Position numbers and translations under genes: made by a program. From NCBI GenBank assembly GCA_038323465.1, contig JBBQGX010000003.1, positions 1 to 34,779 on the forward strand: 34,779 nucleotides of DNA. The letters are read 5' to 3'. Source of the DNA: Minisyncoccia bacterium. GTDB lineage: Bacteria; Patescibacteriota; Minisyncoccia; Phycocordibacterales; UBA9973. Below, piece by piece: positions 11,185-28,557 of the stretch; the first letter of the stretch is position 1, and each line of letters opens with the position of its first letter. Under the pieces are notes generated by a model. That model was not told where the DNA came from and ran no database searches. It was given only the letters and a program-made list of their open reading frames with translations.

Positions 11185-12297
11185 CTACTTATGATAAACT
11201 CCTACAGCTTCACTTATATTTTTATATCCATCTTTTTTGAGTAATTTTGCTAATTCTCTATTTATTTGTCCTATTTGTTGTGGTCCCACATAGATCATAC
11301 CGGTAATCATCTGAACAAGTGAGGCGCCTCTTTTGATCTTCTCATAAGCATCAGCCCCAGTAAAAATTCCACCCGTACCTATAATCACAAACCTATCTTT
11401 ATATTTTTTATAAACTTCACTTATTAGATTATTAGAAAGTTCTTCTGTTGGTTTACCACTGAAGTTTCCTTTTCCTGCATTTTCTATTTCTTCTTTATTA
11501 AAAGATGGATTAGTCCGGTCTTTTACTAAGTTTGAAAAAATAAAACCACTAATCCATTTATAATCTTTAGCCACATCACAAAGAGCCATAGTATCATCTA
11601 CACTTTTTTCTAAATACATTTTTATATATAACGGCTTATCTATATTTAAATATGACAATTTATTGAGTAACATTCCAAAGCCAAGAGGCTGATCAAATTT
11701 GTCTTTTAGATTTTCAACATTTATCAGATTTGGACAACTTATATTAAGTTCAAAGTAATCAAAATAATCTTCTTTTAAAGCTATTTCAAAGGAAGATACT
11801 ACATCATCTATCATATCTTCAATCTTTTTATATGATTGATTAGTGGAGCCAATACTTAAGCCTAGTGGAATTTGCTTTTCATTTTTATTTATTTTTCTTA
11901 AAACATGAAGAAGGCCTCTGCTTTTAAAACCTTTATTTACAAGGAGTGATCTTGATTTAGGAAGTCTTCCTAGCATTGGTTTAGTATTTCCTTCATAAGG
12001 CAATAAGGTCACGGTCCCAATCGTGTGATATCCAAAACCAACATTAGGTAAAATATCAATCAGATCAGCATCATAATCAAATCCAGCAGCAAGCCCAATA
12101 GGATTTAAAAAAGTAATTCCAGAAACATTTATTTTTAGTGTTTTATTTTTATAACAAAATAGTTTTTCAATTAGAGATTTAGTAAAATTATAGCGACCCA
12201 AAAAACTTCCCTGTTTTAAAAAGAAAACATGTACATCATCAGCTGGGAATAAAAAGAGTATCGGCTTAATAATTTTTCGATATATAATTCCTATCAT
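11185..12297 (-). CDS. pyrD: Dihydroorotate dehydrogenase, class 2 architecture with Cys catalytic base
   Basis: 370 aa; N-terminal helical extension (KPILF.FPADDVH), NPIGLAAGFD, GTVT..P.EGN, ELNISCPN, GNFSGKP, IIGTGGI, GASLVQ. Confidence 0.85.
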   Translation of the reverse strand: MIGIIYRKIIKPILFLFPADDVHVFFLKQGSFLGRYNFTKSLIEKLFCYKNKTLKINVSGITFLNPIGLAAGFDYDADLIDILPNVGFGYHTIGTVTLLPYEGNTKPMLGRLPKSRSLLVNKGFKSRGLLHVLRKINKNEKQIPLGLSIGSTNQSYKKIEDMIDDVVSSFEIALKEDYFDYFELNISCPNLINVENLKDKFDQPLGFGMLLNKLSYLNIDKPLYIKMYLEKSVDDTMALCDVAKDYKWISGFIFSNLVKDRTNPSFNKEEIENAGKGNFSGKPTEELSNNLISEVYKKYKDRFVIIGTGGIFTGADAYEKIKRGASLVQMITGMIYVGPQQIGQINRELAKLLKKDGYKNISEAVGVYHK

Positions 12298-12298
12298 T

Positions 12299-12703
12299 TT
12301 ATTGTTCAGTTGTTACGCCGTCAAATTCTGGACCATCGGCAAGAGCGACCTCTTTTGTGGCACGAGTAATCCCATCCTTGTGATGAGCTGGAGAATAAAT
12401 AGTATAAAGCTTGAGCATCTCAACATCTGAAACATTTATAACATTGTGCTCTGCTCCCGATGGGACGATCACAGCATCCCCATCTTTGACGTCGTATGAA
12501 GTGCCATTAATAATTACTTTCCCAACACCACCTTCAAATCGAAAAAACTGGTCATTCTCTTCATGTATCTCCATACCAATATCTTCCCCAGGTTTGAGGG
12601 CCATTAAGACAAGCTGACAATGAGCCCCCGTATAAAGCACCTCTCGAAAATTTTTATTGTTTAAAGTTAACTCCTCAATATTTTGTTTAAATCCTTTTTT
12701 CAT
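12299..12703 (-). CDS. Cupin domain protein
   Basis: 134 aa; IGMEIH...DQFFRFEGG and VIVPSGAEHNVIN cupin motifs. Confidence 0.88.
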   Translation of the reverse strand: MKKGFKQNIEELTLNNKNFREVLYTGAHCQLVLMALKPGEDIGMEIHEENDQFFRFEGGVGKVIINGTSYDVKDGDAVIVPSGAEHNVINVSDVEMLKLYTIYSPAHHKDGITRATKEVALADGPEFDGVTTEQ

Positions 12704-12713
12704 ATTATATATT

Positions 12714-12837
12714 ATCTCGACACCAATACACGAATGAGAGCGAATAACACGAATGAAATATATTTATATTTATGTGTAAATCCGTTTTCATTTGTAATTT
12801 GTGTTGTGTTTATTAATTAATAATCTCTTTTATTATA
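12714..12837. repeat. Direct repeat copy 1: imperfect palindrome plus degenerate copy of the zwf 3' end
   Basis: 12714-12754 matches 13449-13489 at 38/41; 12791-12837 matches 13531-13577 at 40/47. Confidence 0.88.
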
Positions 12838-12841
12838 ACAT

Positions 12842-13438
12842 TTATTGCTTAAAAATCATTGAACCTGAATCAAAATCAAAACCTAAAACAAGATTTTCCT
12901 CTCCATTAAACATAAACCCATTCACTTGTCCTAAGTAAGTAATAAATTTTACTTCCTCAGAACCTTCACAATACATCTCTGTCTGTCCAAGAGATAGAAT
13001 CTTTAAAACTTTATTTTTCAAAGTATATTTACCAAAAAAACTATTACAATCAGTCGTACCACTCAAAATTCCATCTTTTTTAAATGTTATCGAAAATGCA
13101 CCACTTTTCTTTGGAGTAAAGATTGTGTCATCATAGTTTACTACTTCTACTAGTTGCCATTTCTTGTCTAAAATCTTACTCAGACTAACTTCATATTTAA
13201 AATTAGCTTTAATAGCTTCCTCATCTTTTGCTGGTGGTAATGGTTTTTTAGATTCAACGATAATTGGATTAACTTTATTTTCTATTGGCGTTGTTTCTTT
13301 GGCATTATCAGAAATAACCGACTTACCAGAGTTACCTAGAGGAGTCACATTTTTAATTTTATTTTTTTGCCAAAATATAATTACAATAATCACTAAAACT
13401 ATAATTATCAAAATAGAAATTATTTGATTTTTTTTCAT
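12842..13438 (-). CDS. META domain protein with N-terminal membrane anchor
   Basis: 198 aa; N-terminal TM helix; KKWQLV, SITF...G.LSGTTDCNSFFG.Y, GQTEMYC META pattern. Confidence 0.85.
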   Translation of the reverse strand: MKKNQIISILIIIVLVIIVIIFWQKNKIKNVTPLGNSGKSVISDNAKETTPIENKVNPIIVESKKPLPPAKDEEAIKANFKYEVSLSKILDKKWQLVEVVNYDDTIFTPKKSGAFSITFKKDGILSGTTDCNSFFGKYTLKNKVLKILSLGQTEMYCEGSEEVKFITYLGQVNGFMFNGEENLVLGFDFDSGSMIFKQ

Positions 13439-13448
13439 ACCATATATA

Positions 13449-13577
13449 ATCTCGACACCAATACACGAATTAGAACGAATGACACGAATAAATTTATTTT
13501 GTATTTTATTTGTGTAATTCGATGTATTTATTCGTAATTTGTGTCGTGCTTGTTAACTGATAATCTCTTCTATTATA
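13449..13577. repeat. Direct repeat copy 2: imperfect palindrome plus genuine zwf 3' end
   Basis: Left arm ctcgacaccaatacacgaat is near-complementary to right arm attcgtaatttgtgtcgtg; three CGAAT units. Confidence 0.88.
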
Positions 13578-14887
13578 CTGCCTTTTTTATAAATAATTAA
13601 ATCGTAAGTAGACTTCGCCCATGATTTTTGTAAATCATCCAATATTCTCCAAGTCTCGATTACCTCTTCGCTTGAAGTAAATAAACTATGATCACTATTA
13701 ATAGCATTAAAAAGTACTTGCTCGTAAGCCTCAGGTAGTGATAAGTAATGATCCTTAAAAGAGAAATCTAAGATGTGACGACTAACTTGATGCTCATAGC
13801 CAGGACGTTTAGCCCAAACATAAAAAGATATTCCTTCATCTGGTTGAAGCCTTAGAAGCAATTCGTTTGATTCATGCTCATTATCTTTTTTATACAGTAT
13901 TTTTATGAAAGTTGTTTTTTCTTTTAAAGCTTTACCTGTGGTCAGATTAATTTTTACTCCTTCCCACTTAGGATCAGAAGAAACCAGATCGAGAGAAACA
14001 AAAGTTTCTGTCACACTATCATTATTGCCAACTTCTTCTCTATAACCTTTGTATTGTCCACGCTTAGCATAAGTTGATAATGATTTCCCTTTTACAAGTG
14101 AGAGCTTAGAAAGAGCCTCGAATCGTAATTTAGGAACATCCTCTAGGTTATCAGCATTAGGTACTTCCATTAAGGTTAGTGCTAATAGTTGTAAAAGATG
14201 ACTTTGGACCAAATCTCGAAGAGCACCAGTTTGTTCATAAAAATTGGTGCGACCTTCGATACCAATCTCTTCGCTAACAGTCACTTCAATCTTTTCAATA
14301 AAATTCTTATTCCAAGTCTTTTTAAAAAGAGAATTTCCATCTCGGAAAACTATAATATTTTGAGCTATTTCTTTAGCTAGATAGTGATCAATACGATAAA
14401 CTTGATCAGTCTTCCAAAATTTATCAATATGAGCAACTAAATCAATAGCACTAGACAGATCCACTCCAAATGGTTTTTCTAATAAGATTTTTGAATTTTC
14501 TCTTTCTGAAAGTCCCGACTTACCAATAAATTCAATAATGCCTTTCGAAACATTTGGCGGAACAGAAAGATAAAATAAATATTGAGTAGAAGAACCAAAA
14601 TCTTTTTCTATTTCATCTAGTCGATTTTTCAAATTAAGATAATCATCAGAACTTTCTAAATCCATTTGAAGCAACTCCATATTCTCTATTAAATAATCTT
14701 TATTGGAAGTTTGATTTAATAAATTATCTAATTTAATATCACCTCGTCTCGTAACTCCGACAATTCTAAATTGTGACGGAATCATACCTGTTTTAGCGAT
14801 CTGACCAATAGCCGGTAAAAGTTTTCTCTTGGATAAATCTCCAGAGACTCCAATGATGACAAGAATTGTAGGTGTTTTATTACTCAT
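13553..14887 (-). CDS. zwf: Glucose-6-phosphate 1-dehydrogenase
   Basis: 444 aa; GVSGDLSKRK, LEKPFG, YRIDHYLAKE, YEQTGALRDLVQSH, RGQY.GY, TETF, AYE. Confidence 0.96.
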   Translation of the reverse strand: MSNKTPTILVIIGVSGDLSKRKLLPAIGQIAKTGMIPSQFRIVGVTRRGDIKLDNLLNQTSNKDYLIENMELLQMDLESSDDYLNLKNRLDEIEKDFGSSTQYLFYLSVPPNVSKGIIEFIGKSGLSERENSKILLEKPFGVDLSSAIDLVAHIDKFWKTDQVYRIDHYLAKEIAQNIIVFRDGNSLFKKTWNKNFIEKIEVTVSEEIGIEGRTNFYEQTGALRDLVQSHLLQLLALTLMEVPNADNLEDVPKLRFEALSKLSLVKGKSLSTYAKRGQYKGYREEVGNNDSVTETFVSLDLVSSDPKWEGVKINLTTGKALKEKTTFIKILYKKDNEHESNELLLRLQPDEGISFYVWAKRPGYEHQVSRHILDFSFKDHYLSLPEAYEQVLFNAINSDHSLFTSSEEVIETWRILDDLQKSWAKSTYDLIIYKKGSIIEEIIS

Positions 14888-15782
14888 TTATTTTATGACC
14901 ACCAAAAGCATTTCGCATTGATGCTAATACTTTGGTTGCAAAATTAATTTTCCCAACCTGTGAATCTAATCGAACTTTAAACGAAGCTGCTATTGCTGGT
15001 GTTTCTATATTGAAATCTTTCGCGACAGCAAGAGCCCAACGAGCTTCACCTGATTCAGCCACAACCCCACTAATACCTTCTTGATTTGGATTTTCTTTCA
15101 AGAAATCCCGAGCTAATTCATTGAGCCAGCAAGTGATCACACTGTGATGTTGCCAAACTTCTGCCGCCTCAGATAAATTGATGTTTTTGTATGGTCCCTC
15201 TTTTAGAAGATGATAACCTTCAGCAAGACTTTCCATCATTCCATATTCTATCGCATTATGAACCATTTTGACATAATGACCTGAACCGTTTTCTCCAAAA
15301 TGATGATAGGCTCCATTTGGTGCTTTTAAACTTTCCAGAATAGGCACAATAGTATTTACAGCATCCTTATCGCCCCCTACCATCATCGAAAAACCATTTT
15401 GGTATCCCCAAACCCCACCACTAGTACCGACGTCTAAAAGAACAGAACCTTTATCTTGCACATAAATTGCTCTTTCTTTAGTCAGATTATATGGGGAGTT
15501 GCCTCCATCTATTAAAATACTTCCTGGTGGTATTATAGAAAGCCAAGAACTCAATTCTTTATCCACAGCATCCGAAGGAATCATTATCCAAACAATAACT
15601 TGATCATCTCCAAAAGATTTGATCACTTCTTCTTTTGTATAACAAGCAATCATGCCAAAAGACTTCATTTCATCAACAAGACCACTACTCCTATTGTGAG
15701 CAATTACATTATACCCACTTTCGTGTAACTTTTTAGCTATTTGTGAACCCATTTTACCTAAACCTGATATTGCTATTTTCAT
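14880..15782 (-). CDS. gnd: 6-phosphogluconate dehydrogenase (decarboxylating), short form
   Basis: 300 aa; GLGKMG, IDGGNS, DVGTSGG, GHYVKMVHNAIEYG, MRNAFGGH. Confidence 0.93.
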   Translation of the reverse strand: MKIAISGLGKMGSQIAKKLHESGYNVIAHNRSSGLVDEMKSFGMIACYTKEEVIKSFGDDQVIVWIMIPSDAVDKELSSWLSIIPPGSILIDGGNSPYNLTKERAIYVQDKGSVLLDVGTSGGVWGYQNGFSMMVGGDKDAVNTIVPILESLKAPNGAYHHFGENGSGHYVKMVHNAIEYGMMESLAEGYHLLKEGPYKNINLSEAAEVWQHHSVITCWLNELARDFLKENPNQEGISGVVAESGEARWALAVAKDFNIETPAIAASFKVRLDSQVGKINFATKVLASMRNAFGGHKINE

Positions 15783-15783
15783 T

Positions 15784-16464
15784 TTATTTGTGATCGCTAA
15801 AAATTGTTAATATTGGGACTTTTTTTAATATTTGAGCAGGTTGATCCTCTATTGATATATCTTTTGATAATAATGAAACAATAGGCCATTTATCTTCTCC
15901 CATTGCAATAACTATAACTTCATTTAATTCTGATATTAATTTTGGAGTTATCGTAATTCGGTCATAAGTAGGTGTTTCAAAAAAACAAATATTTTCTCTA
16001 GAAGTGACAGCATCTGAGTAAGGTAAAATACCAGCTGTATGACCATCAAGACCCAAGCCCAATATTGCAATTTTATATTCAGCTTTACTTAACTCTTCAT
16101 TTAATTCACCTTTGATTTTTTTCATAGTTTCTGATAACGATAAACCAGAAAGATATGGGACCAATTTTGCTTCTGGCAAATCGAAACCTCTACTGACCAA
16201 TTTAAACCAATTAGAATCAGAACTGTCTGGTAATCCAAATCTCTCATCAGCCAAAGTAACAACTAAGTTTTTATTAGAAAAATCTTTGATCTTTTTTGTA
16301 GCTTCAATTTCAAACGGGATAACCGATCCACCTGAAATAAAAAGTAAAACTTTTTGTCCCATTTTCAATGGCCATAGAACAGAAGAAGAAATAAAATCTG
16401 AAACTTCTTCATTATTATTTATTATTTTTATATTTAGATTCATCTGGTTAGTAATAAATAACAT
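15784..16464 (-). CDS. pgl: 6-phosphogluconolactonase / glucosamine-6-P isomerase family
   Basis: ISGGS, LADERFG..DSSDSN, LGLGLDGHTAG, RITIT; alternative start 16443; adjacent to gnd and zwf. Confidence 0.85.
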   Translation of the reverse strand: MLFITNQMNLNIKIINNNEEVSDFISSSVLWPLKMGQKVLLFISGGSVIPFEIEATKKIKDFSNKNLVVTLADERFGLPDSSDSNWFKLVSRGFDLPEAKLVPYLSGLSLSETMKKIKGELNEELSKAEYKIAILGLGLDGHTAGILPYSDAVTSRENICFFETPTYDRITITPKLISELNEVIVIAMGEDKWPIVSLLSKDISIEDQPAQILKKVPILTIFSDHK

Positions 16465-19030: not shown

Positions 19031-20056
19031 CTATGCTTTAGGAATTCTAACAGAGACGCTTGTTCCTTGACCTATCTTACTCTCAATTGTGATATTTCCA
19101 CCATGTTGTTCTATTATTTGCTTGGCGATTGGTAACCCTAACCCTGAACCAGAACCATCATTTCTCGAATGTGATGCTTTGTAGAATCTATCAAAAACAT
19201 AAGGTAAGTCTTCATCTGATATTCCTACCCCTGTATCAATTATTTTTATTGTAAAAGAAGATCTTTGACCTAAAATATTTATTGTAATATTCCCATTTTT
19301 TGGTGTGTAGTTTATTGCATTCTGTAAAATATTTTGTATTGCCCTTTCAAAGTTATGTGCGTGGACCTTTATATCTCCACTAATATTTGTATTTACCTTT
19401 ATATTAATATTCTTTTTTTCAGATTGAGATTTCATCCTATCTAATATTTTATATATAGGATCCTCAATAAAAACTTTTATTAAATTTTCTTTACTAACTT
19501 CATTTTCAGTTCTCGCAATCATTAACAAATCGGAAATAAGTAACGACATTCGATTCGTCTCTTCCAGATTACTTTCAAAAACTTTTCTGCATTCTCCTGC
19601 GGAAATATTTTTATCACTTAGTGCTATTTCTGTTTCGGTTGTGATTATCGCAAGTGGAGTACGAAGATCGTGAGAAGCATCAGCAGAAAAACGCTTCTGC
19701 GAATCCATAGCTTTTCTTATAGGTTTCAATGTTTCACCTGCAAGAAAATAACTTGCAGCACCTATCAACAATAGCAATAATCCATCAAGTGAAAAGACCA
19801 ATGTCTCTATACCTTTATTTGTTTCAGTAATAGCTTTAGTAAAAACTTCGCCTTGTTCAATTCTTACAGAAAAAGACTCTTCAATATTCTTTTCGAGAGC
19901 AACAATAAGCACAGAACTAAATATAAAAAGAACAACAACCATGATAGCTATATAGAAAATAGTTAAACGAATACGAGCCTTTTCAAAAATATTATTTTTT
20001 ATTTTACGACTTAAATCGATAACCGACTCCATGAATTGTTTCAAATAATTTTTCAT
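19031..20056 (-). CDS. Sensor histidine kinase (HisKA + HATPase_c)
   Basis: Two TM helices; H-box DASHDLRTPL, N-box QNILQNAINYT, DTGVGI, FDRFYK, GSGLGLPIAK; true start may be 20032. Confidence 0.95.
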   Translation of the reverse strand: MKNYLKQFMESVIDLSRKIKNNIFEKARIRLTIFYIAIMVVVLFIFSSVLIVALEKNIEESFSVRIEQGEVFTKAITETNKGIETLVFSLDGLLLLLIGAASYFLAGETLKPIRKAMDSQKRFSADASHDLRTPLAIITTETEIALSDKNISAGECRKVFESNLEETNRMSLLISDLLMIARTENEVSKENLIKVFIEDPIYKILDRMKSQSEKKNINIKVNTNISGDIKVHAHNFERAIQNILQNAINYTPKNGNITINILGQRSSFTIKIIDTGVGISDEDLPYVFDRFYKASHSRNDGSGSGLGLPIAKQIIEQHGGNITIESKIGQGTSVSVRIPKA

Positions 20057-20678
20057 TTTTATTTTGTAATTTACGACGTAAATTCTTTATGTGTACATCG
20101 ACCACATTACTAACTCCACCAAATGCAAAATCCCAAACATGATTCATTATCTTTTCACGAGATAATACTTCATTGGGGTGTCTCATAAACTGTTCAAGAA
20201 TTGCAAATTCTTTGGTTGTTAGAGTTATTGCTTTTTTACTTTTAAAGACTTCTCTTGTGGCTGTATTTAATGATATATTTGCTACTACTATAAGTGGGGA
20301 TATATTTGTCTCGACTGGTCTACGTGTCAACGCTCCTATTCTAGCCAGCAACTCAGCAAAAGCAAAAGGCTTTGTGAGATAGTCATCTGCTCCAATATTT
20401 AAACCTGTGACTTTATCTTCTAGGGTATCTTTTGCTGTTAGCATTAATATTGGAATTTTAATGCTTTGATTCCTTAAATTTTTACAAATAGTTATTCCAT
20501 CAATCGTTGGAAGCATTAGGTCTAAAACAACTAAATCATAATCCATATGATTACCTTCAAGCCTTCTTAATCCCTGTTCTCCATCAAAAAGTGTATCGAC
20601 AGCATAGCCATTAAATTCTAATCCTTTTTTGATAGATAGAGCTAATTTTTCTTGATCTTCAATAATTAATATTCTCAT
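20004..20678 (-). CDS. OmpR-family response regulator
   Basis: 224 aa; MRILIIED, DLVVLDLMLP, MLTAKD, GADDYLTKPF, winged helix VDVHIKNLRRKL, TIHGVGY. Confidence 0.97.
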   Translation of the reverse strand: MRILIIEDQEKLALSIKKGLEFNGYAVDTLFDGEQGLRRLEGNHMDYDLVVLDLMLPTIDGITICKNLRNQSIKIPILMLTAKDTLEDKVTGLNIGADDYLTKPFAFAELLARIGALTRRPVETNISPLIVVANISLNTATREVFKSKKAITLTTKEFAILEQFMRHPNEVLSREKIMNHVWDFAFGGVSNVVDVHIKNLRRKLQNKNEKLFETIHGVGYRFKS

Positions 20679-20700
20679 ACATTATATAATGATATCAGAT

Positions 20701-20721
20701 TGTGAAGAATTCATGAAGTTA
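20701..20721 (-). promoter_or_regulatory. Candidate autoregulatory OmpR-family box upstream of the response regulator
   Basis: tgtgaagaattcatgaagtta, TGAAG at 20703 and 20714, 22 bp upstream of the ATG. Confidence 0.5.
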
Positions 20722-20753
20722 ACTACTATCCATGTCGGACATGGATAGTAGTT
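20721..20753. terminator. 16-bp perfect inverted repeat after the copper operon (terminator-like)
   Basis: aactactatccatgtc-g-gacatggatagtagtt; T-tract only on the + side. Confidence 0.55.
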
Positions 20754-20757
20754 TTTA

Positions 20758-21168
20758 TTACTGAAATTGAATTTCAAATGGGTACATCCCCATACCACAA
20801 ACACCTTGAAGTGTGCCTGCTTTTTGAACACCTAAATCAATATCTGTTATGCCGGAATTTGGTAATATTTTCCCTATATTCATACTTGGGATACGAACAG
20901 AGGAAGAACAATCAAAAGTACCCTTGGTATTGAAACGCAAAATAGTAGGGATCCCCGATGCTGCAATACTCACACGTGGAGTATATCCACCCTTGGCGCT
21001 TATTTCAATAATTTGTTTACCGTCAACAACTGCCACATTTTTAATATTTTGTTTTTGTTCATTTTGAGAAAGATTTTGATCTTGCGGTTGATTTCTATTA
21101 CTTGTAAAGTAAATAGCTCCTCCTACAAGAATTATAACTACAACGATTGAAATAATTGTTGATTTCAT
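20758..21168 (-). CDS. Cupredoxin domain-containing membrane-anchored protein
   Basis: 136 aa; N-terminal TM; GGYTPR, FDCSSS, GVCGMGMY. Confidence 0.88.
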   Translation of the reverse strand: MKSTIISIVVVIILVGGAIYFTSNRNQPQDQNLSQNEQKQNIKNVAVVDGKQIIEISAKGGYTPRVSIAASGIPTILRFNTKGTFDCSSSVRIPSMNIGKILPNSGITDIDLGVQKAGTLQGVCGMGMYPFEIQFQ

Positions 21169-21173
21169 GTTAT

Positions 21174-22232
21174 TTAAAAGTTAAATATTGGTGGTATGAC
21201 CCCGATGACCACTAGGCTATTAATGAGATTAAATAGGGCAAACATTATAACAATTAATCCAGCAGATTTAAAGAAGATACCGGAGTTTTTGTTGTTTTGA
21301 ATACTAAAAGAAGAAAAACTAATAAGAGCAAGAACTGGTAGAGTTCCTAATGCAAATGATAGCATAGAAAGACCGCCTTTTAGAAAGCTTCCGGTTCCGA
21401 GTGTGTATATCTGCATAGACTGAGTAAAACCACAAGGTAGAAAAAATGTAGCAACTCCAACAAGAAGTGGTGTGAGGGTGTGGTTGAATTTACTAACACT
21501 AAGTGCATTTTTCCCTAGAAACTTTGGCATAGATAGCTGTAATTTTTTAGCCCAAGGGAAGACATCTAATAGATTAATTCCTAAAATAAACATAACAATA
21601 GCAATAATTACTCCAAGAATAAATGTCGCTATTGTACTGAGAGTGAAAGCAGAACCCACAGCTCCGATCACACCACCGAGAATAAAGAAGGAAACTATTC
21701 TACCTACATGAAACATCATTTGAGGAGATACTATCCAGCTTCTTCGGCTAGTCTCCGAAGAGGTGACTTTATCAAAAGTGGCTGACATGGATAATATAAG
21801 TCCTCCAACAACAGCCATACAAGTAGAAAGCGAAGCAATAATTCCGATAACAAATGCTGTACCATAAGTAACCTTACCCGAACCAATAATATTTATCAAT
21901 CCAACCTTTTGTAAAACAAAAAATAAAATTGTAAAAACAATTGCAACAGGAACAGCTATTTTAAAATCTCCCAAATTTTTAGTTTTTATTTGTTTTTCTA
22001 CAGAAAGTGTATATCCATGCTTTTTTAAAACTTCATTTAATTCGCTTGCAATTTGCTCTTGGCTCTTATCTCCAAAATCTCCAGTAACTTCTACAGAATT
22101 ACTTTGTAAACTTGTTTTTACTTTTTTTATTTCAGGCTGTTTACCTAGTTCACTCTCTGTCATTAAGACACAGGAGTTGCAGTGCATACCAGAAATATGA
22201 AAACTGTATGTTTGTTTATTATTCATAATCAT
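21174..22232 (-). CDS. HMA domain + TauE/SafE (DsbD_2-like) membrane protein of copper operons
   Basis: GMHCNSC at N-terminus; [35 protein letters not shown]. Confidence 0.9.
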
Positions 22233-24523
22233 AATTTTTTAGTTTTAATTCGTAATGAGTTTCCGACGACTGAAACACTTGAAAATGCCATAGCAAGTCC
22301 TGCAAATACAGGATTAAGTAACCATCCAAAAATAGGATAGAAAACTCCAGCAGCAAGAGGTATTCCTATTATGTTATATATAAATGCCCAAAAAAGATTT
22401 TGTTTAATACCTCGCATTGTCATTTTTGATAATTTGATAGCTTTAACAAGTTTTGAAATATCTCCATTAAGAAGTGTGATTCCAGCACTTTCTATCGCGA
22501 CATCTGTCCCAGTGCCCATAGCTATACCTACATCAGCCTGCGCGAGTGCTGGGGCATCATTTACCCCATCTCCTGCCATTGCTACTACCTTACCATCTAT
22601 TTGTAATTCTTTTATCTTGGCAAGCTTATCAGCAGGCATAACATGAGCTACAACTTCATCTATGCCAACGAGTGAAGCCATATATTTAGCGGCTTTTTCG
22701 TCATCTCCAGTAAGCATAACAACTTGAATTCCGAGTGCATGGAGATCTTTTACTGCTTGTATTGCATCTTTTTTAATCTCATCGGAAACCATAACAAATC
22801 CAAGAACTTTTTCTTTTGTAGCCAATATTACTGGGGTTTTTCCTTGAGATGTATATTTACTGAGTAATTCTTCATCAAAAGAAATTCTTAAATCATTTAT
22901 AAGTTTTGCATTTCCGACAAAATATTCAGTACCGTTAATCACCCCCCTTAATCCTCTACCTTGTATGCCCTCAAAATTTGAAATTTCTAATGTGGAAATA
23001 TTTTTTTCTTTGGCATAATTTATAATAGCGGAAGCTATAGGATGTTCTGATTTATTTTCAAGAGAAGCAATTATGGAAATAAATTCTTGTTCACTCATGT
23101 CTCCATAATTTTCAATATCAACTAGTGTTGGGCGACCAATGGTTATAGTACCAGTCTTGTCTACAACCACCGTATTTACTTTATGAAGTTTCTCGAGTGT
23201 TGCAGCATCTTTAATTAATATTCCTTCTCTCGCTCCTTTACCTACTCCAACAATAATTGCAGTCGGAGTAGCAAGCCCGAGAGCACAAGGACAAGCAATA
23301 ACAAGAATTCCAACAAATGAAACCAAACCATAAGATAGAGCTTGTGAAAATCCCAAATAATTACTTCCTACTATAAGCCAAACTCCTAAAGTTAAAAATG
23401 TAATAATCAAAACAATAGGAACAAAAATTCCTGATATTTTATCGGCCAATGCTTGTATTGGGGCCTTACTTCCTTGCGCTTCTTCTACCATTTTTATTAT
23501 CTGAGCAAGTAGTGTTTCCGAACCAACTTTTGTCGCCGAGAATGTAAATGACCCACTTGTATTAAGTGTTCCAGATACAACACTATCTCCAACTTTTTTC
23601 TGCACTGGCATAGGTTCTCCTGTTACCATTGATTCATCAATAAATGAAACTCCTTCTGTTATTACACCATCAACTGGAATTCTTGTTCCTGGTTTTACAA
23701 TAATTAAATCCGCGTGGATAACTTCACTAATAGGAATTTCTATTTCTTTTCCACCACGAATAACCAGAGCAGTTTTAGCTTGAAGATTTAAAAGTTTCTC
23801 AATAGCATCTCCTGTTTTTATTTTTGAACGAGCTTCTAAATATTTTCCTAATGCAATAAATGTAATAACAACAATCACCACATCAAAATAAGTATTTTCA
23901 ACATTAATAAAGACTTTCAATACATCTTCAAATGCACCAACAATAAAACTATATAAAAAAGCAGAAACTGTACCAATACCAATTAGTGTATCCATATTAG
24001 CTTTACCATATCGAAGAAATCTATATAAACCAAGAAGATAAGGCTTTCCTACAACGAAAAGTGTATAAGTTGCCATTACTGGAAGTAAATGATGAAAAAA
24101 TTCCTTTATGGTATAACTCATAGGAGCTATTACACTATACTGAGATAAAATATCCCAAGCCATAATAAAGATACTAATTAAAGCCAGAGGGAAAGCTCTG
24201 ATTAACAATAATTTCTGACTTGATAATTCTACTAGTTTTTCTTTTTTTGATTGATCTAAACCCAAATGTTCCGCATGTTCATTTGGAGACATTCCCATTC
24301 CCTCGGTCGTTGGCAATACAATAGAATACCCAAGTGATTCTATCTTTTTTGAAAGATTTTCTAAATTGTTCTTTGTGTTATCGTAAGAAAGTTTAACAGC
24401 TTCAGTTCCATAATTAACAGAAACATTAGAGACCCCATCTTCCTTCTTTAGTATTTTTTCTATAATAACAGCACATGAAGCACAGTGCATTCCTTTTAGT
24501 TTATATATTTTAGTATTATTCAT
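22229..24523 (-). CDS. copA: Copper-translocating P1B-type ATPase
   Basis: 764 aa; [39 protein letters not shown]...IP, MAFSS. Confidence 0.96.
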
Positions 24524-24528
24524 CTAAA

Positions 24529-24789
24529 TTACTTACGCTTTAAACGATAAACTTTAATAATCTCCTCGGTAGCTTTCTTTGTTTTACCTGCTTTGATTTG
24601 ATTAACCAAACAATGCCCCAAATGTTGTTCGAGAAGTATATCTTCTACGTTTGATATACCTTGCTTTACAGCACTGGCTTGAGTAATGATATCTATACAA
24701 TACACACCACTATCGAGCATCTCTTGTAAACCACGAATCTGCCCCTCAATAATTTTTAAACGTTTTATAAGTTTTTGTTTATCATACAT
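24529..24789 (-). CDS. csoR: CsoR/RcnR family metal-sensing repressor
   Basis: 86 aa; RLKIIEGQIRGL, YCIDIITQ, EQHLGHC (C-H-C copper ligands). Confidence 0.93.
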   Translation of the reverse strand: MYDKQKLIKRLKIIEGQIRGLQEMLDSGVYCIDIITQASAVKQGISNVEDILLEQHLGHCLVNQIKAGKTKKATEEIIKVYRLKRK

Positions 24790-24796
24790 ACAAATA

Positions 24797-24826
24797 AGTA
24801 TATACCCCCTAGGGGGTATATGTCAA
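24797..24826 (-). promoter_or_regulatory. CsoR operator within a sigma70 promoter
   Basis: Perfect 22-bp palindrome atataccccctagggggtatat (24800-24821) between TTGACA (24826-24821) and TATACT (24802-24797); ATG 7 nt downstream. C-tract/G-tract palindrome is the known CsoR operator type. Confidence 0.9.
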
Positions 24827-24842
24827 GGAGTTACTAATTATT

Positions 24843-27473
24843 TTATATCCACCCGTATTTTTTAATAAACCATTTTTTTAGAAGTTGAGTAATTATAAAG
24901 TATAATATTAATCCAATAAATAATAACCCAAAGTAAAGAGGTGGAAGTGGAACAAAATGTAAAGCAGAAGCAAGTGGTGAAAATGGTAGATAAATTCCAA
25001 TTGAAATTATAACTGCAGTGGATACAATAAGAGACCAACTTGCACGACTTTGTATAAATGGAATCTTACTCGTCCTTATAATATGCACAATTAAAGTTTG
25101 AGTTAAAAGTGACTCTACAAACCAACCTGTTTGAAATAATGTAGGATTCCCAAATGTATGAAAAACATAAAGCATCACAAAGAAGGTGGCATAATCAAAA
25201 AGAGAACTTATGGGACCAAAAAAAAGAATGAATTTCTTTATTTTATTAAAATCCCATTTTTTTGGTCTTATTAATTGATCTTCATCTACGTTATCAGTAG
25301 GTATTGTCATTTGAGAAAAATCATAAAGCATATTGTTTGCTAAAATTTGAATTGGAAGCATTGGTAAAAATGGTAAAAATATACTTCCACCAACGACTGA
25401 AAACATATTCCCAAAATTTGAACTAGCTGCCATTTTTATATATTTAAGTATATTATCAAAAATCCTCCTCCCCTCTTTGACTCCTTCTTTAAGTACGAGT
25501 AAACTCTTTTCAAGTAATATCAAATCAGAGGATTCTTTTGCAATGTCAGCAGCGGTATCTACAGATATTCCTACATCAGCAGCGATAAGAGAAAGAGAAT
25601 CATTAATCCCATCTCCTAGAAACCCCACTATGTGACCATTGGTTCTTAAAATTTTTATTATTCTTTGTTTATCATAAGGGGAGAGCCTAGCAAAAACTGA
25701 AACATTTTCTATCTCTTTTGATAACTCATCATCATTAAATTTTTCAATATCTTTTCCAGTTAAAATTTTATCGACTTCAATACCAACATCTTTGCATATC
25801 TTTTCTGTCACAATTTCATTATCTCCAGTGAGAATCTTGATATTAACACCTAGTATTTTTAAGTCTCTTATTGTTTCTAAGGCACTAACTTTAGGAGGAT
25901 CAAAGAAAGCCAAAAACCCCACTAAAATAAGATTACTCTCATCTGTATTATTAAAAACTTTCTTATCTTTATCTACTTCTTTATAAGCTACAGCGATAAC
26001 CCTGAATCCTTCTCTATTTAAACCTTCTTTTATAGAAAACTTTTCACTCTCAGAAAAATTAGAAATAGGAATAACTTCATTATTAACTAAAACTCTCGTG
26101 CAATTATCCAATATTTCTTCAACTGCACCTTTACATATAAATAAGTGTTTGTTTTTATTATCAGAAACAACAACAGACATCATCCTGCGACTAAAATCAA
26201 AGGGGAGTTCGTCTATTTTTGTAAAATCCTTTATTGTAAATCTTTCATTTACTTCTTCATGTTTTAAAATAGCATTATCTATAATATCATTCATACCTGT
26301 TTGAAAATAACTATTGAGATAAGCAAAATGGAGAGATTCATTATTTTCTTTTCCATTAATATCTAAATATTTTTCTAATACTATTTTACCTTCTGTTAAT
26401 GTTCCTGTTTTATCAGTGCATAAAATATCCATAACTCCCAGATTCTCAATCGAGTCCAAATGTTTTACAATAATTTTATTTTTAGACAAAGCAAGTGCCC
26501 CTTTTGAAAGATTTACTGCTACAATAGTAGGAATCATCTCTGGGGCTACTCCTACAGCCACAGCCAGAGCAAAGATAAATGCTTCAAACCAATTACCCTT
26601 AAATATTCCATTTAAAAGAAAGACAGCAGGAACCATAAATAACATAAACTTAATAATTAGCAGTACAAATAATTTCAATTCTTTATTGAAATCAGAAATA
26701 TGTTCAGTTGTATCCATATCAAAAGCGATACTACCTAGATATGTGTTTTTACCAGTACTTACCACGATAGCTTCCGCCATACCACTCTCAACACTAGTTC
26801 CAAAGAAGCATAAATTACAAAATTCTATTACATTTTTATCAACCAAATTATTATCCACAACATGTTTTTCTACAGGTAATGATTCACCAGTTAACATAGC
26901 TTGATTTATAAATAGATCTTTTGAAGAGACTAGTCTTATATCACCAGGAATAACTGTACCTGAGTATAATTCTACAATATCACCAGGAACAACTTCCCTC
27001 GATGGAATTTCTATTTTTTGACCGTTGCGTAACACTGTCGTTTTTGTGTGGATAATAGCTTTTAGCTTATCAGCCGCGATAGAAGCTTTTGTCTCTTGAT
27101 AAAAATTCAATACAATACTAAGAATAACCATCATTATAATAATGGCAAAAGCTTTCATGTCTCCAACGAAAAATGAAATGGTAGCAAGTATAAACAAGAG
27201 AATCTTGAGTGGGTCTTTCACAATATTAAAAAGTTTACGAAAATGATTCGTTTTTTTATCTTCAGCAATATTATTATAACCAAAAATTTTTATTCTTCTT
27301 TTTACTTCATTACTATTTAACCCATCAATATCTGTATTCAATTCTTTCAAGGCAAAACTTGGATCATTTTGTGCATATTTTAAAAGCTTATCAAAAAGCT
27401 CTTTCTTTATGGATTCCAACTCTTCAGTTCCATCTTTTCTTTTCGCCTTAAAAATATGTTTAAATAAATTCAT
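24843..27473 (-). CDS. mgtA: Magnesium-translocating P-type ATPase
   Basis: 876 aa; LTGESLPVEK, AVGVAPEM, DKTGTLT, GDGINDS, SSNFGNMFSV, QTGWFVESL. Confidence 0.95.
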   Translation of the reverse strand: MNLFKHIFKAKRKDGTEELESIKKELFDKLLKYAQNDPSFALKELNTDIDGLNSNEVKRRIKIFGYNNIAEDKKTNHFRKLFNIVKDPLKILLFILATISFFVGDMKAFAIIIMMVILSIVLNFYQETKASIAADKLKAIIHTKTTVLRNGQKIEIPSREVVPGDIVELYSGTVIPGDIRLVSSKDLFINQAMLTGESLPVEKHVVDNNLVDKNVIEFCNLCFFGTSVESGMAEAIVVSTGKNTYLGSIAFDMDTTEHISDFNKELKLFVLLIIKFMLFMVPAVFLLNGIFKGNWFEAFIFALAVAVGVAPEMIPTIVAVNLSKGALALSKNKIIVKHLDSIENLGVMDILCTDKTGTLTEGKIVLEKYLDINGKENNESLHFAYLNSYFQTGMNDIIDNAILKHEEVNERFTIKDFTKIDELPFDFSRRMMSVVVSDNKNKHLFICKGAVEEILDNCTRVLVNNEVIPISNFSESEKFSIKEGLNREGFRVIAVAYKEVDKDKKVFNNTDESNLILVGFLAFFDPPKVSALETIRDLKILGVNIKILTGDNEIVTEKICKDVGIEVDKILTGKDIEKFNDDELSKEIENVSVFARLSPYDKQRIIKILRTNGHIVGFLGDGINDSLSLIAADVGISVDTAADIAKESSDLILLEKSLLVLKEGVKEGRRIFDNILKYIKMAASSNFGNMFSVVGGSIFLPFLPMLPIQILANNMLYDFSQMTIPTDNVDEDQLIRPKKWDFNKIKKFILFFGPISSLFDYATFFVMLYVFHTFGNPTLFQTGWFVESLLTQTLIVHIIRTSKIPFIQSRASWSLIVSTAVIISIGIYLPFSPLASALHFVPLPPLYFGLLFIGLILYFIITQLLKKWFIKKYGWI

Positions 27474-27558
27474 ATATTATATATAATAACATTAAAATTG
27501 TGAAAAAAATATAAATATCTTTTTATATCATTATTTGATATAATCAAACAATAATTTT

Positions 27559-28557
27559 ATGCAACACACTACCGGGAATAAATCAGTTGTTTTCGCCCTT
27601 ATCGGTAACACCTTTGTAACTTTTATAAAAACAATTGTCGCTGTTTTGACGGGATCAGCCAGTATGTTTGCTGAAAGTGTTCACAGTTTTGCTGATACTC
27701 TCAATCAGTCACTACTTCTAATAGGACTCAGGCGTTCAAAAAGACCCGCTGATGAAGTCCATGGTTATGGATACGGTATTGAGCGATTCTTTTGGTCACT
27801 TATTTCAGCTTGTGGAATTCTTTTCATTGGAGCTGGAGTTACGGTTTATCACTCTATAAACTCTTTAATAGAGAATAATCACATTTATCACTTTAATTAT
27901 AGTATTAGTTTAGTTTTAATCATTGCTCTCTTTGTTGAGGGGTCAACTTTATATATTGCTATAAATGAACTCCGCGGAAAAAGAAAATTATCAAAGAAAA
28001 TATTTGAGGATGCTGATCCTGTAACCCTCTCTGTTGTATATGAAGATTCGGCTGCTGTCCTCGGTGTTCTCGTGGCACTCTTGGCTCAGTTATTAATGTT
28101 TTTAACACATGATGTCTTTTACGACTCAATCGGGGGAATAATTGTCGGTTTTATCCTCGGATTTTTGGCAATTTTACTCATTATAAAAAATCACAATTAT
28201 ATTATAGGCAAATCTCTAAAAGAAGACAGAACAGAAGAAGTTATAAAATTTTTACTTAAAGATCCTTGTATTGAAAATATTTCGGAATTCAAATCCGTAG
28301 CTATAGATATAAATAAATACAGAATCTATGCCACAGTAGAGTGGAATGGTTCCCCTCTTTATGAAGAGATATACGAAGCTGGTGACCTAAGAAAAGAATT
28401 CGATGATATAAAGGATGATTTCCGAGAATTTACAAAACTGATGTTTAAAACTACAGACCGTATACCAAGGCTTGTAGGAAATCATATAGATGAAATCGAG
28501 AAGAAAATAAGAGAAGAATTCCCTGAAATTGTTTATGTTGATATTGAGATAAATTAG
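27559..28557 (+). CDS. Cation diffusion facilitator family transporter
   Basis: 332 aa; SASMFAESVHSFADTLNQ, H.YGYG.ERFFWS, EDSAA; TGaTATAAT upstream. Confidence 0.92.
   Translation: MQHTTGNKSVVFALIGNTFVTFIKTIVAVLTGSASMFAESVHSFADTLNQSLLLIGLRRSKRPADEVHGYGYGIERFFWSLISACGILFIGAGVTVYHSINSLIENNHIYHFNYSISLVLIIALFVEGSTLYIAINELRGKRKLSKKIFEDADPVTLSVVYEDSAAVLGVLVALLAQLLMFLTHDVFYDSIGGIIVGFILGFLAILLIIKNHNYIIGKSLKEDRTEEVIKFLLKDPCIENISEFKSVAIDINKYRIYATVEWNGSPLYEEIYEAGDLRKEFDDIKDDFREFTKLMFKTTDRIPRLVGNHIDEIEKKIREEFPEIVYVDIEIN

What the first reader, a model, noticed from the sequence alone, without database searches (positions are those of the whole stretch)
12714..13577. META gene sits in a cassette bounded by ~125-bp direct repeats that duplicate the zwf 3' end plus a palindromic element
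Seen: 22 bp identical (ATCTCGACACCAATACACGAAT, 12714 and 13449), 38/41 over the left arm and 40/47 over the right part, where all 7 differences are transitions. The right part of copy 2 is the real zwf end (IIEEIIS*); copy 1 holds a gene-less ghost of it (IIKEIIN*, 12813-12837). Each copy contains an imperfect hairpin with three CGAAT units. Inference: the META gene arrived by Campbell-type integration of a circle, or by recombination at the palindrome that regenerated the zwf end, with no recombinase in the window. The motif recalls hairpins I associate with GxxExxY/four-helix-bundle cassettes, which is unverified recollection. It may mark a gene-capture hotspot.
Basis: partly seen in the sequence, partly recalled or inferred. 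Interest (0 to 1): 0.68.

Follow-up and report, generated by a model that had tools for sequence, protein, structure and literature searches.

The report
Gene-less hairpin repeats flanking META gene
The two ~145-bp repeats around this small membrane-protein gene are real, but the gene is an old resident of the operon; the repeats are two copies of a gene-less hairpin element added later, from a widespread and barely described repeat family that elsewhere carries a small nuclease gene.

Summary
The cassette-arrival reading fails. zwf-META-cupin-DHODH synteny occurs in at least 7 related Paceibacteria (CPR) genomes or contigs with short spacers and no palindrome. META's tree matches the species tree, and the sister lineage has simply lost META.

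The repeat is composite:
- 25 nt where the zwf end resembles the start of the META-cupin spacer. This resemblance is older, and the spacer carries a TGTTATAAT promoter-like box.
- Two sister copies of a ~100-nt inverted doublet.
- The native MKK starts of both genes.

Each doublet arm carries three CACGAAT words spaced 9-10 nt apart. The same arms bracket GxxExxY (TIGR04256, PD-(D/E)XK-type) nuclease genes in two genomes of this genus and in metagenome contigs. More than 120 metagenome contigs hold the arm, mostly without a gene. The nearest relatives have no copies.

The doublets are therefore gene-less, REPIN-like hairpins added in this lineage. The second copy probably arose by local homology-templated copying. 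There is no evidence for a gene-capture hotspot.

The parts
13553..14887 (-). zwf (glucose-6-phosphate dehydrogenase). Its last 25 nt (13553-13577) form the outer end of repeat copy 2.
   Evidence: Pfam G6PD_N and G6PD_C. The C-terminus is conserved in relatives.
13430..13577 (.). Direct repeat copy 2 (R2). It comprises the zwf end, doublet 2, a 12-nt leader and the first codons of META.
13451..13552 (.). Doublet 2, a gene-less inverted pair of CACGAAT-type arms. The ATG-proximal arm is 13451-13489 (three CGAAT), the loop is 13490-13507, and the stop-proximal arm is 13508-13552 (two ATTCG left). It begins directly after the zwf stop codon.
   Evidence: Sequence. DNA fold -20.0 kcal/mol, z = -6.2. 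Relatives' zwf-META spacers lack it.
12842..13438 (-). META-domain (HslJ-like) protein with an N-terminal membrane anchor. It is a resident gene, not cargo.
   Evidence: Pfam PF03724. Orthologues at 54-81% identity sit in the same position in at least 7 other contigs. Its tree is congruent with the species tree.
12695..12837 (.). Direct repeat copy 1 (R1). It comprises the ghost, doublet 1, a 12-nt leader and the first codons of cupin.
12813..12837 (-). The 'ghost' of the zwf end, which is the start of the conserved META-cupin spacer. Together with 12838-12840 it reads TGTTATAAT on the minus strand (12832-12840), an extended -10-like box.
   Evidence: 22/25 identity to 13553-13577. Local alignment score 19 against a shuffle maximum of 14. 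The orthologous spacers of all META+ relatives start AATG[GT]TATAAT and end TAATTAA.
12716..12812 (.). Doublet 1, the sister copy of doublet 2. The ATG-proximal arm 12716-12754 is intact (three CGAAT). The loop is 12755-12771. The stop-proximal arm 12772-12812 is decayed, with every CG changed to TG or CA.
   Evidence: Sequence. DNA fold -9.8 kcal/mol, z = -1.55. 80% identical to doublet 2 against 70-73% to the C5 doublet.
12299..12703 (-). Cupin_2 protein, downstream neighbour. Its MKK start is native.
   Evidence: Pfam. All relatives start MKKGFKQ or MKKGYKD.
11185..12297 (-). Dihydroorotate dehydrogenase, the last gene of the conserved block.
   Evidence: Pfam. Synteny.

Best explanation
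The ~145-bp direct repeat has three components of different age.

1. The core is two sister copies of a ~100-nt gene-less inverted doublet (hairpin). Each arm is a 40-45-nt unit, (T)CAAACACGACACMAATACACGAATGnnnnCGAATGACACGAAT, with three CACGAAT words spaced 9-10 nt apart. This unit is the terminal arm of GxxExxY (TIGR04256, PD-(D/E)XK-fold) nuclease cassettes. The copies in this window are ORF-less derivatives, comparable to MITEs or REPINs.

2. The doublets were added in this genome's own lineage. They went into two pre-existing short spacers of an old, vertically inherited operon, pgl-gnd-zwf-META-cupin-DHODH. Each sits directly after a TTAA: the zwf stop codon in one case and the stop-like end of the META-cupin spacer in the other. 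META was already there.

3. The 25 nt outside the doublet reflect an older resemblance between the zwf terminus and the start of the META-cupin spacer, which carries a TGTTATAAT promoter-like box. The shared ATGAAAAAA is simply the native start of both genes.

Inferred steps. One doublet landed first, probably after zwf. The second arose by local homology-templated copying, that is ectopic gene conversion using the paralogous flanks, which dragged the zwf end along. The non-coding copy then decayed by GC-to-AT transitions. I put this at about 55%, against about 45% for a second independent insertion into the look-alike target.

The hairpins most likely have no host function. They are tolerated inside the operon and co-transcribed. 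Their practical consequences would be an intercistronic stem-loop in the mRNA and a 145-bp direct repeat that could delete META by recombination, as the sister lineage L084 appears to have done through the older short repeat.
For: Shown:
- Synteny exists without the element in L068, L069, L072, L089, L090, L091 and the P0008 contig.
- The five-gene tree is (L091,(L068,(G000,L084))) with support 98/98, 100/100 and 100/99. The META tree is congruent, with G000+L068 at 97/96 (zwf alone).
- L084 reads zwf-37 nt-cupin.
- The nearest relatives G109, G110 and G111 have no units. G000 has 8 more arms at 6 other intergenic sites.
- The arms flank GxxExxY ORFs in G088 and G017, as nusG-arm-ORF-arm-rplK, and in 5 metagenome loci.
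- Within the genus the arm occurs in 7 of 93 genomes and the GxxExxY gene in 3 of 93. All 3 are arm-positive, Fisher p = 2.7e-4.
- At least 120 metagenome contigs of 33-68% G+C hold the arm. Of 60 evaluable hits, 17 are gene-less doublets and 36 are solo arms.

Support for a single copy event:
- R1 and R2 share derived arm features and are 80% identical, against 70-73% to the C5 doublet.
- Identity runs without a break across the element/flank boundary.
- All 7 differences in the 47-nt stretch 12791-12837 (stop-proximal arm plus ghost) are transitions, with A/T in R1.
- G000's ghost is closer to zwf ends (22/25 to its own, about 20/25 to L068's) than to L068's orthologous spacer (about 17/26, read).
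Against: - No GxxExxY gene was found in G000. The assembly is 88% complete, so no cognate enzyme is in hand.
- No target-site duplication or other insertion scar is visible at the filled sites when compared with empty ones.
- The C5 doublet shares the same ATG-proximal arm and GAGATTATAT leader at 92-95%, so two independent insertions from one source remain plausible.
- The zwf-end/spacer resemblance is statistically solid only in G000. In relatives it is weak or absent: L090 p = 0.04, L069 p = 0.07, others not significant.
- The ATG-proximal arms are better conserved than hairpin pairing would require, which could mean a sequence-specific host function.
- No reads or transcripts could be examined.
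Confidence: 0.72

Rival explanations
1. One reading: META is a captured cassette. A circle carrying META plus one repeat integrated by Campbell-type recombination, or by recombination at the palindrome, between zwf and cupin. This regenerated the zwf end and marks a gene-capture hotspot.
For: The ~145-bp direct repeats flanking a single gene, including a duplicated gene end, have the expected footprint. Empty zwf-cupin sites exist in G003 and L084. The region downstream of zwf varies across the genus.
Against: At least 7 relatives carry META at the same place without the palindrome. META's tree matches the species tree. The empty L084 is nested inside META+ lineages, which makes it a loss. The palindrome is specific to G000 among its close relatives. 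No other cargo is seen at the site. META's MKKN start is shared with its orthologues (L091 MKKN; L069 MKNN; L072 and L089 MNKN), so it was not copied from cupin.
Confidence: 0.04
2. Two independent insertions. The same gene-less doublet inserted separately into the two spacers, because both offered the same preferred target (directly after ...ATTATYARTTAA). The flanking similarity is only the older paralogy, with no gene conversion. This differs from the best explanation only in how the second copy arose.
For: Arms begin 0-4 nt after a stop codon at most sites: zwf, the ghost stop, rpmF, gatC, the C10 gene, a pilin gene, and G068 L079. The gatC-gatA junction is filled in G000, G068, G017 and metagenome contig L180 but empty in their nearer relatives, which suggests a site preference. 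The C5 doublet has an equally similar ATG-proximal arm and leader. The META+ relatives' spacers align with the zwf end.
Against: R1 and R2 share derived left-arm features and loop length that C5 lacks. The flank is more similar in G000, and free of indels, than in any relative. Every difference in the 47-nt stretch is a transition.
Confidence: 0.3
3. Host-functional element. The arms are binding sites for a host DNA-binding protein, or the hairpins are intercistronic RNA processing or stability signals selected at these junctions, rather than selfish insertions.
For: The three CGAAT words are phased at 10 and 9 nt, on one face of the helix. The ATG-proximal arms are 92-95% identical among R1, R2 and C5, while the other arms decay. 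Arm sequence is about 90% conserved between genomes whose proteins are 65-80% identical. The rpmF-nusB spacer holds some hairpin in every genome examined.
Against: The arm is absent from the three nearest relatives and from 86 of 93 genomes in the genus. It occurs in both orientations and at a convergent gene end. There is no Rfam match and no terminator or promoter signal above background. The same arms bracket a nuclease ORF elsewhere.
Confidence: 0.12
4. REP/REPIN proper. The doublets are REPINs mobilised by one of the genome's RAYT-like Y1 transposases.
For: The genome has 4 PF01797 (Y1_Tnp) genes. The doublet-plus-singlet population structure is REPIN-like.
Against: Three of the four Y1 genes (C5:24101-24745, C28:8377-9051, C5:11759-12454) are flanked by their own different GC-rich hairpins, not by CGAAT arms; the fourth, on C51, is interrupted by a stop and lies at a contig end. 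Y1 genes also occur in genomes without the arm, G003 and G021.
Confidence: 0.04

Closest known systems
REP / REPIN elements with RAYT transposases (Bertels & Rainey 2011, PMC3116915; PMC3337134)
   Same: They are short extragenic repeats that occur as inverted doublets forming ~100-nt hairpins, alongside decayed singlets. They sit in intergenic spacers, often just after stop codons, and the doublets are non-autonomous.
   Different: No cognate RAYT flanks these arms, and the genome's Y1 genes have other hairpins. The arms are built from phased 7-nt words rather than a single GC-rich palindrome. The associated gene elsewhere is a PD-(D/E)XK-type GxxExxY protein that sits inside the doublet.
GxxExxY protein family (NCBIfam TIGR04256; Pfam PF13366 according to the earlier scan notes) in repeat-bracketed cassettes
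   Same: The same arm sequence, with the same polarity, flanks TIGR04256 ORFs in G088, G017 and five metagenome loci. In some cassettes the arm encodes the ORF's first residues (L155, L195, L180, L181) or its last residues (G088).
   Different: This locus, and the whole G000 assembly, has arms but no GxxExxY gene. I found no experimental description of the family's function or mobility in the searchable literature.
Ssn single-strand nucleases with NTS/SRM repeats (Chenal et al. 2025, PMC11893778)
   Same: A small nuclease gene is associated with many dispersed copies of a short repeat that it recognises, and the repeats surround ordinary genes.
   Different: The nuclease fold differs (GIY-YIG against PD-(D/E)XK) and so does the repeat design. 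Binding or cutting of CACGAAT arms by GxxExxY is not shown.
Integron gene cassettes with attC sites, such as the ~120-bp Vibrio VCRs
   Same: Imperfect palindromes of about 100-125 bp recur on both sides of a single small gene.
   Different: The ends lack the GTTRRRY and RYYYAAC core sites. No integrase was found in the 36 window ORFs scanned. The flanked gene is vertically inherited and present in relatives without the repeats.
MITEs (miniature inverted-repeat transposable elements)
   Same: They are ORF-less, have terminal inverted repeats matching those of an ORF-bearing relative, and are dispersed in intergenic DNA.
   Different: No target-site duplication is seen, and the ORF-bearing relative encodes a small nuclease rather than a recognised transposase.

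Membership tests
Captured cassette by Campbell-type integration | Relatives show an empty site with a single repeat copy, or different cargo, and the cargo's phylogeny is discordant with the host's. | tested here: not met
   Relatives carry META without the repeats. The empty sites in L084 and G003 have no palindrome. The META tree is congruent with the species tree.
Captured cassette by Campbell-type integration | A circular excision product or deletion junction is present in reads. | not testable with these tools
GxxExxY-type hairpin element (gene-less form) | Two inverted arms built of a 7-nt word repeated at 9-10-nt phase. | tested here: met
   CGAAT starts at 12731, 12741 and 12750 in copy 1 and at 13466, 13476 and 13485 in copy 2, and the opposite arm is in reverse complement.
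GxxExxY-type hairpin element (gene-less form) | The same arms bracket a TIGR04256 ORF elsewhere. | tested here: met
   G088 L254, G017 L255, and L155, L195, L138, L180 and L181. Genus-level association has p = 2.7e-4.
GxxExxY-type hairpin element (gene-less form) | A GxxExxY gene is present in the same genome as a cognate enzyme. | tested here: not met
   No TIGR04256 match in G000 by six-frame search, in an 88% complete assembly.
GxxExxY-type hairpin element (gene-less form) | Presence or absence differs between related genomes at otherwise conserved junctions. | tested here: met
   zwf-META, META-cupin, gatC-gatA and rpmF-nusB are filled in G000 and empty or different in G109, G110 and G111.
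REPIN/RAYT | A RAYT (Y1 HUH transposase) gene is flanked by the same REP sequence. | tested here: not met
   Four PF01797 genes; the three with readable flanks (C5:24101-24745, C28:8377-9051, C5:11759-12454) have other, GC-rich hairpins.
REPIN/RAYT | Inverted REP doublets that form hairpins, plus singlets, all extragenic. | tested here: met
   G000 has 3 doublets (R1, R2, C5) and 5 solo arms, all intergenic.
Integron cassette / attC | R''/R' core sites (RYYYAAC ... GTTRRRY) at the ends of the palindrome. | tested here: not met
   The ends read CAAGCACGACAC...GGTGTCGAG and TAAACACAACAC...GGTGTCGAG, and neither contains GTTRRRY.
Integron cassette / attC | An IntI integrase and attI site adjacent to the array. 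| tested here: not met
   No integrase domain in any of the 36 window ORFs of 90 aa or more that were scanned. The rest of the genome was not searched for IntI.
MITE | A target-site duplication flanks the terminal inverted repeats. | tested here: not met
   Comparison of filled and empty sites shows no duplicated flank.
Known RNA family (Rfam) | A match to a covariance model. | tested here: not met
   Only chance-level hits, all with E above 2.

The most novel reading that the evidence does not exclude
The R1/R2 pair may be a natural record of how gene-less GxxExxY-type hairpins multiply. On this reading they do not spread by cut-and-paste transposition. They spread by homology-templated copying, a homing-like repair or ectopic gene conversion, into a site whose flanks resemble the donor's flanks, with the flanks co-converted. 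Here the co-converted flank is the last 25 nt of zwf. This would explain three things: the absence of target-site duplications, the repeated filling of the same junctions (for example gatC-gatA) in different lineages, and the persistence of arms in a genome with no GxxExxY gene in its assembly.
Probability: 0.2. Interest if true: 0.6.

Novelty: new variant of a known kind. Interest (0 to 1): 0.35.

Why it matters
For this locus the result is deflationary. There is no gene capture. An ordinary pentose-phosphate/pyrimidine operon in a CPR bacterium picked up two copies of a selfish-looking hairpin.

The wider value is as a clean, datable example for a repeat family that seems to be missing from the literature. 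That family consists of arms of phased CACGAAT words which bracket GxxExxY nuclease genes and occur far more often without a gene. This genus supplies four useful things:
- filled and empty versions of the same junctions in related genomes;
- the full cassette and its gene-less forms side by side;
- a genome that has arms but no nuclease gene in its assembly;
- a pair of copies whose homology runs on into flanking host DNA, which bears on the mechanism of spread.

The case also shows how such hairpins create direct repeats that can delete resident genes.

Tried and rejected
- Rfam on 12500-13800 at permissive thresholds gave only chance hits.
- The promoter/terminator scan found no terminator, and promoter-like sites were at background level.
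- A link to RAYT/REPIN was rejected, because the Y1 genes have different hairpins and also occur in arm-free genomes.
- The four-helix-bundle family TIGR02436 shows no correlation with the arm.
- An integron attC reading was rejected, because the core sites are absent.
- I considered that the element supplies the zwf C-terminus. This was rejected because IIEEIIS-type ends are native in relatives that lack the element.
- I considered that META's ATGAAAAAA start was copied from cupin. This was rejected because META orthologues start MKKN, MNKN or MKNN.
- I tested for co-converted flanks between G000 and G068 at gatA. Only the first 60 nt show an excess (47/60 against 36-39/60), which is too weak to use.
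- The arm pattern has a single hit in viral contigs, so there is no phage link.
- The literature on GxxExxY gave nothing relevant.
- The scan's earlier findings held nothing for this sequence itself.
Full report
**Observation.** All genes lie on the minus strand, in this order:
- pgl 15784-16464
- gnd 14880-15782
- zwf 13553-14887
- META-domain gene 12842-13438
- cupin 12299-12703
- dihydroorotate dehydrogenase 11185-12297

The spacers zwf-META and META-cupin are direct repeats of each other: 12695-12837 against 13430-13577. The repeat finder gives 77 nt at 84% plus 54 nt at 83%, and a whole-genome search gives E = 1.3e-33. Every number in the finding checks out:
- 22 of 22 identical at 12714 and 13449.
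- 38 of 41 over the left arm.
- 40 of 47 over the right part. All 7 differences are transitions, always A/T in copy 1 and G/C in copy 2.
- A 22 of 25 match between the last 25 nt of zwf (IIEEIIS*) and a gene-less look-alike after META (IIKEIIN*).

No recombinase, integrase or transposase domain occurs in the 36 window ORFs of 90 aa or more that were scanned.

**Whose genome.** The assembly is 753 kb, 32.7% G+C, in 57 contigs and 88% complete. The nearest named records are Candidatus Paceibacteria MAGs, which belong to the CPR/Patescibacteria.

**META is an old resident.** META homologues at 54-81% identity were looked up in their contigs. In every case examined the order was (pgl)-(gnd)-zwf-META-cupin-DHODH. 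The cases are L068, L069-L071, L072-L074, L089, L090, L091 and the P0008 contig. Their two spacers are short, mostly 12-65 nt. Where they are longer, in L090 and L091, they hold unrelated sequence. None contains the CGAAT palindrome.

A concatenated pgl+gnd+zwf+cupin+DHODH tree gives (L091,(L068,(G000,L084))) with supports 98/98, 100/100 and 100/99. The META tree is congruent, with G000+L068 at 97/96 (zwf alone). L084, the sister of this genome, reads zwf-37 nt-cupin and has no META. G021, the sister of META+ L090, reads zwf-DHODH.

The parsimonious history is therefore vertical inheritance of META with at least two losses. Recent arrival is not supported. META's start (MKKN) is shared with its orthologues and cupin's MKKGFKQ with its own, so the shared ATGAAAAAA at the inner end of the repeat is coincidental.

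**The ghost.** IIEEIIS* is the native zwf end, since relatives end in STIEEIIS*, IIEEVTN* and EIEEIIN*. The look-alike after META is the beginning of the META-cupin spacer. In all META+ relatives that spacer starts AATG[GT]TATAAT and ends TAATTAA, some 10-16 nt before the cupin ATG. The exception is L091, whose spacer is longer and ends TTCAA at that point. The spacers align end to end with the last 30 nt of zwf.

The TGnTATAAT box is an extended -10 consensus and probably the cupin promoter. That is an inference and was not tested.

The resemblance to the genome's own zwf end is statistically strong only in G000, where the local score is 19 against a shuffle maximum of 14. It is marginal in L090 (p = 0.04) and L069 (p = 0.07) and absent elsewhere. 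I read it as an old duplication of the zwf terminus that has decayed differently in each lineage. In G000 it is unusually fresh: indel-free, in frame, and differing only by transitions.

L084's zwf ends SSIISEIIN*, which is more spacer-like than zwf-like. This fits loss of META by recombination between the zwf end and its ghost, but it is suggestive only.

**The palindrome is a dispersed element.** Apart from the two window copies, the arm occurs at six other intergenic sites in this genome:
- a third full doublet between rpmF and a nusB-nudix gene (C5:14787-14886);
- solo arms after gatC, between two pseudopilin genes, after an M23/LysM peptidase gene, between yidD and yidC, and on C28.

The forward arm begins 0-4 nt after a stop codon in most cases. 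In the three doublets the reverse arm ends 6-12 nt before the next ATG, with a shared GAGAT(T/A)ATAT leader.

The three nearest relatives (G109, G110, G111) have no copies. Within the genus only 7 of 93 genomes have any. Junctions filled in G000 are empty in those relatives. For example, gatC and gatA overlap by ATGA in G109, G111 and G112, but are separated by an arm in G000, G068 and G017.

**What the arms belong to.** Their G+C ranges from 33 to 68%. The commonest recurrent neighbour is a ~125-aa ORF that scores as GxxExxY protein, TIGR04256 (E = 5e-34 to 2e-15). In those loci a forward arm precedes the ORF and a reverse arm follows it. In several cassettes the ORF's first residues are encoded by the arm itself.

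One such cassette, L180, sits between gatC and gatA, the very junction that holds a solo arm in G000.

In this same genus, G088 and G017 have nusG-[arm]-GxxExxY-[arm]-rplK. Across the 93 genomes, GxxExxY genes occur in exactly three (G017, G068, G088). All three are among the seven arm-bearing genomes, giving Fisher p = 35/129766 = 2.7e-4. G000 has none.

Of 60 evaluable metagenome hits, 17 are gene-less doublets, 7 have the reverse arm 120-700 nt away, and 36 are solo arms. So R1, R2 and the C5 copy are gene-less doublets of a family whose full form carries a small PD-(D/E)XK-type nuclease gene.

Earlier notes of this scan describe the same family in many other genomes. I reached the link independently before reading them.

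**How two copies came to flank META.** R1 and R2 are 80% identical over the whole element, against 70-73% to the C5 doublet. They share derived features in the stop-proximal arm (AAATTAC for AAATACAC, and TTACACA) and a longer loop. Three points favour one copy event that spanned the zwf end, the doublet and the leader, followed by GC-to-AT decay of the unconstrained copy R1:
- The similarity continues without a break into the 25-nt flank.
- All differences in the 47-nt stretch 12791-12837 are transitions toward A/T in R1.
- G000's ghost is nearer to zwf ends than to the orthologous spacer of its closest META+ relative.

Such an event would be ectopic gene conversion seeded by the older paralogy. 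The alternative is two independent insertions into look-alike targets. It is kept alive by the C5 copy, whose ATG-proximal arm and leader are just as similar, and by the recurrent filling of gatC-gatA. I put conversion at about 55% and independent insertion at about 45%. No target-site duplication is visible in either case.

**What it does.** I expect the doublets to be co-transcribed with the operon, for two reasons: there is no terminator-like T tract, and the spacers are otherwise tiny. Doublet 2 is a strong hairpin: as DNA -20.0 kcal/mol with z = -6.2, and as RNA on the coding strand -25.6 kcal/mol with z = -2.5. Doublet 1 has lost its stop-proximal arm through CG-to-TG changes and is barely better than shuffles.

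The most likely status is selfish or neutral DNA tolerated at operon junctions. The side effects would be an intercistronic stem-loop and a 145-bp direct repeat able to delete META. A host function, as an operator or an RNA signal, cannot be excluded, because the ATG-proximal arms are conserved beyond what pairing requires. I give that about 12%.

**Comparison with known systems.** The closest described kinds are REP/REPIN doublets with RAYT transposases (PMC3116915, PMC3337134) and the Ssn nuclease/NTS repeat systems (PMC11893778). Membership of REPIN/RAYT fails on the defining feature. Of the genome's four Y1 genes, the three with readable flanks sit between their own different hairpins and also occur in arm-free genomes. 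The integron attC reading fails on the core sites and the integrase. The MITE reading fails on target duplication. The Campbell-cassette reading fails on synteny and phylogeny.

**Limits.**
- G000 is incomplete.
- The relatives are species-level, not strain-level.
- The function of GxxExxY proteins is not established.

Noticed in passing
G000 contigs C5:24101-24745, C5:11759-12454, C28:8377-9051, C51:2527-2859: Four Y1_Tnp (IS200/RAYT-like) genes. Three of them are each bracketed by their own short GC-rich hairpin on both sides (for example CCCAGCCTTGCTGG, TTCCCACACCCGGTGTGAGGA, CCTAGG...CCTAGG). These are REP/RAYT-like pairs distinct from the CGAAT arms.
   Followed up: partly
L090:3870-4000 (zwf-META spacer of a relative): A different palindromic insertion (CCATAGGTCGGACCTAGGG ... 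CCCTAGGTCCGACCTATGG) occupies the same zwf-META spacer in another lineage. This spacer has therefore been hit by unrelated hairpin elements more than once.
   Followed up: no
L075 (G017:C3:17000-20500), about 1137-1220 and 2296-2430: Tandem arrays of 2 and 3 CGAAT units with a 49-52-nt period flank a 275-aa ORF with a winged-helix-like C-terminus. Perfect DnaA boxes (TTATCCACA / TGTGGATAA) lie immediately outside both arrays, so this may be an origin region.
   Followed up: no
rpmF-nusB junction: G000 C5:14785-14882; L112-L119: Every genome examined has a ~75-100-nt hairpin-forming spacer here, but the sequences are unrelated between lineages. G000 and G068 both use CGAAT doublets.
   Followed up: partly
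L256 (G068:C3:3300-4300): G068's GxxExxY gene is flanked by arrays of a different word (CACTGAT / ATCAGTG) rather than CACGAAT, while the same genome has CACGAAT arms elsewhere. This suggests that protein and word specificities come in several variants.
   Followed up: no
L155:3099-3125, L195, L180, L181: In GxxExxY cassettes the ATG inside the arm (CGAATGACACGAAT) is the ORF's start, so the first residues (MTTNNTN, MPTNDTN, MTRI) are encoded by the repeat. In G088 the last residues are encoded by the reverse arm.
   Followed up: partly
L084:5288-5372 (sister genome, zwf-cupin junction): The zwf C-terminus is SSIISEIIN*, against STIEEIIS* in the META+ relatives, and META is absent. This pattern is expected if META was deleted by recombination between the zwf end and its ghost.
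   Followed up: partly
L069, L072, L089: These relatives lack gnd between pgl and zwf, while G000, L068, L084, L090 and L091 have it. The pentose-phosphate block varies in content within the genus.
   Followed up: no
window 19031-28557: A histidine kinase and OmpR-type response regulator pair lies next to a metal-handling cluster: cupredoxin-like protein, DsbD_2-HMA protein, two P-type ATPases and a cation-efflux protein.
   Followed up: no
L120:5301-5327 (IMG/VR contig): This is the single viral-collection contig with an exact CGAAT arm match, and it shows additional CACGAAT words upstream.
   Followed up: no
G000 C6:22696-22755 versus G068 (L106): gatA in G000 and G068 shares an N-terminal extension MKINL next to the arm, and 47/60 identical bases against 36-39/60 for the other genomes. 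Overall identity to G068 is no higher (67.3% nt; lowest at the protein level, 62.7%). This is a possible shared flank tract.
   Followed up: partly
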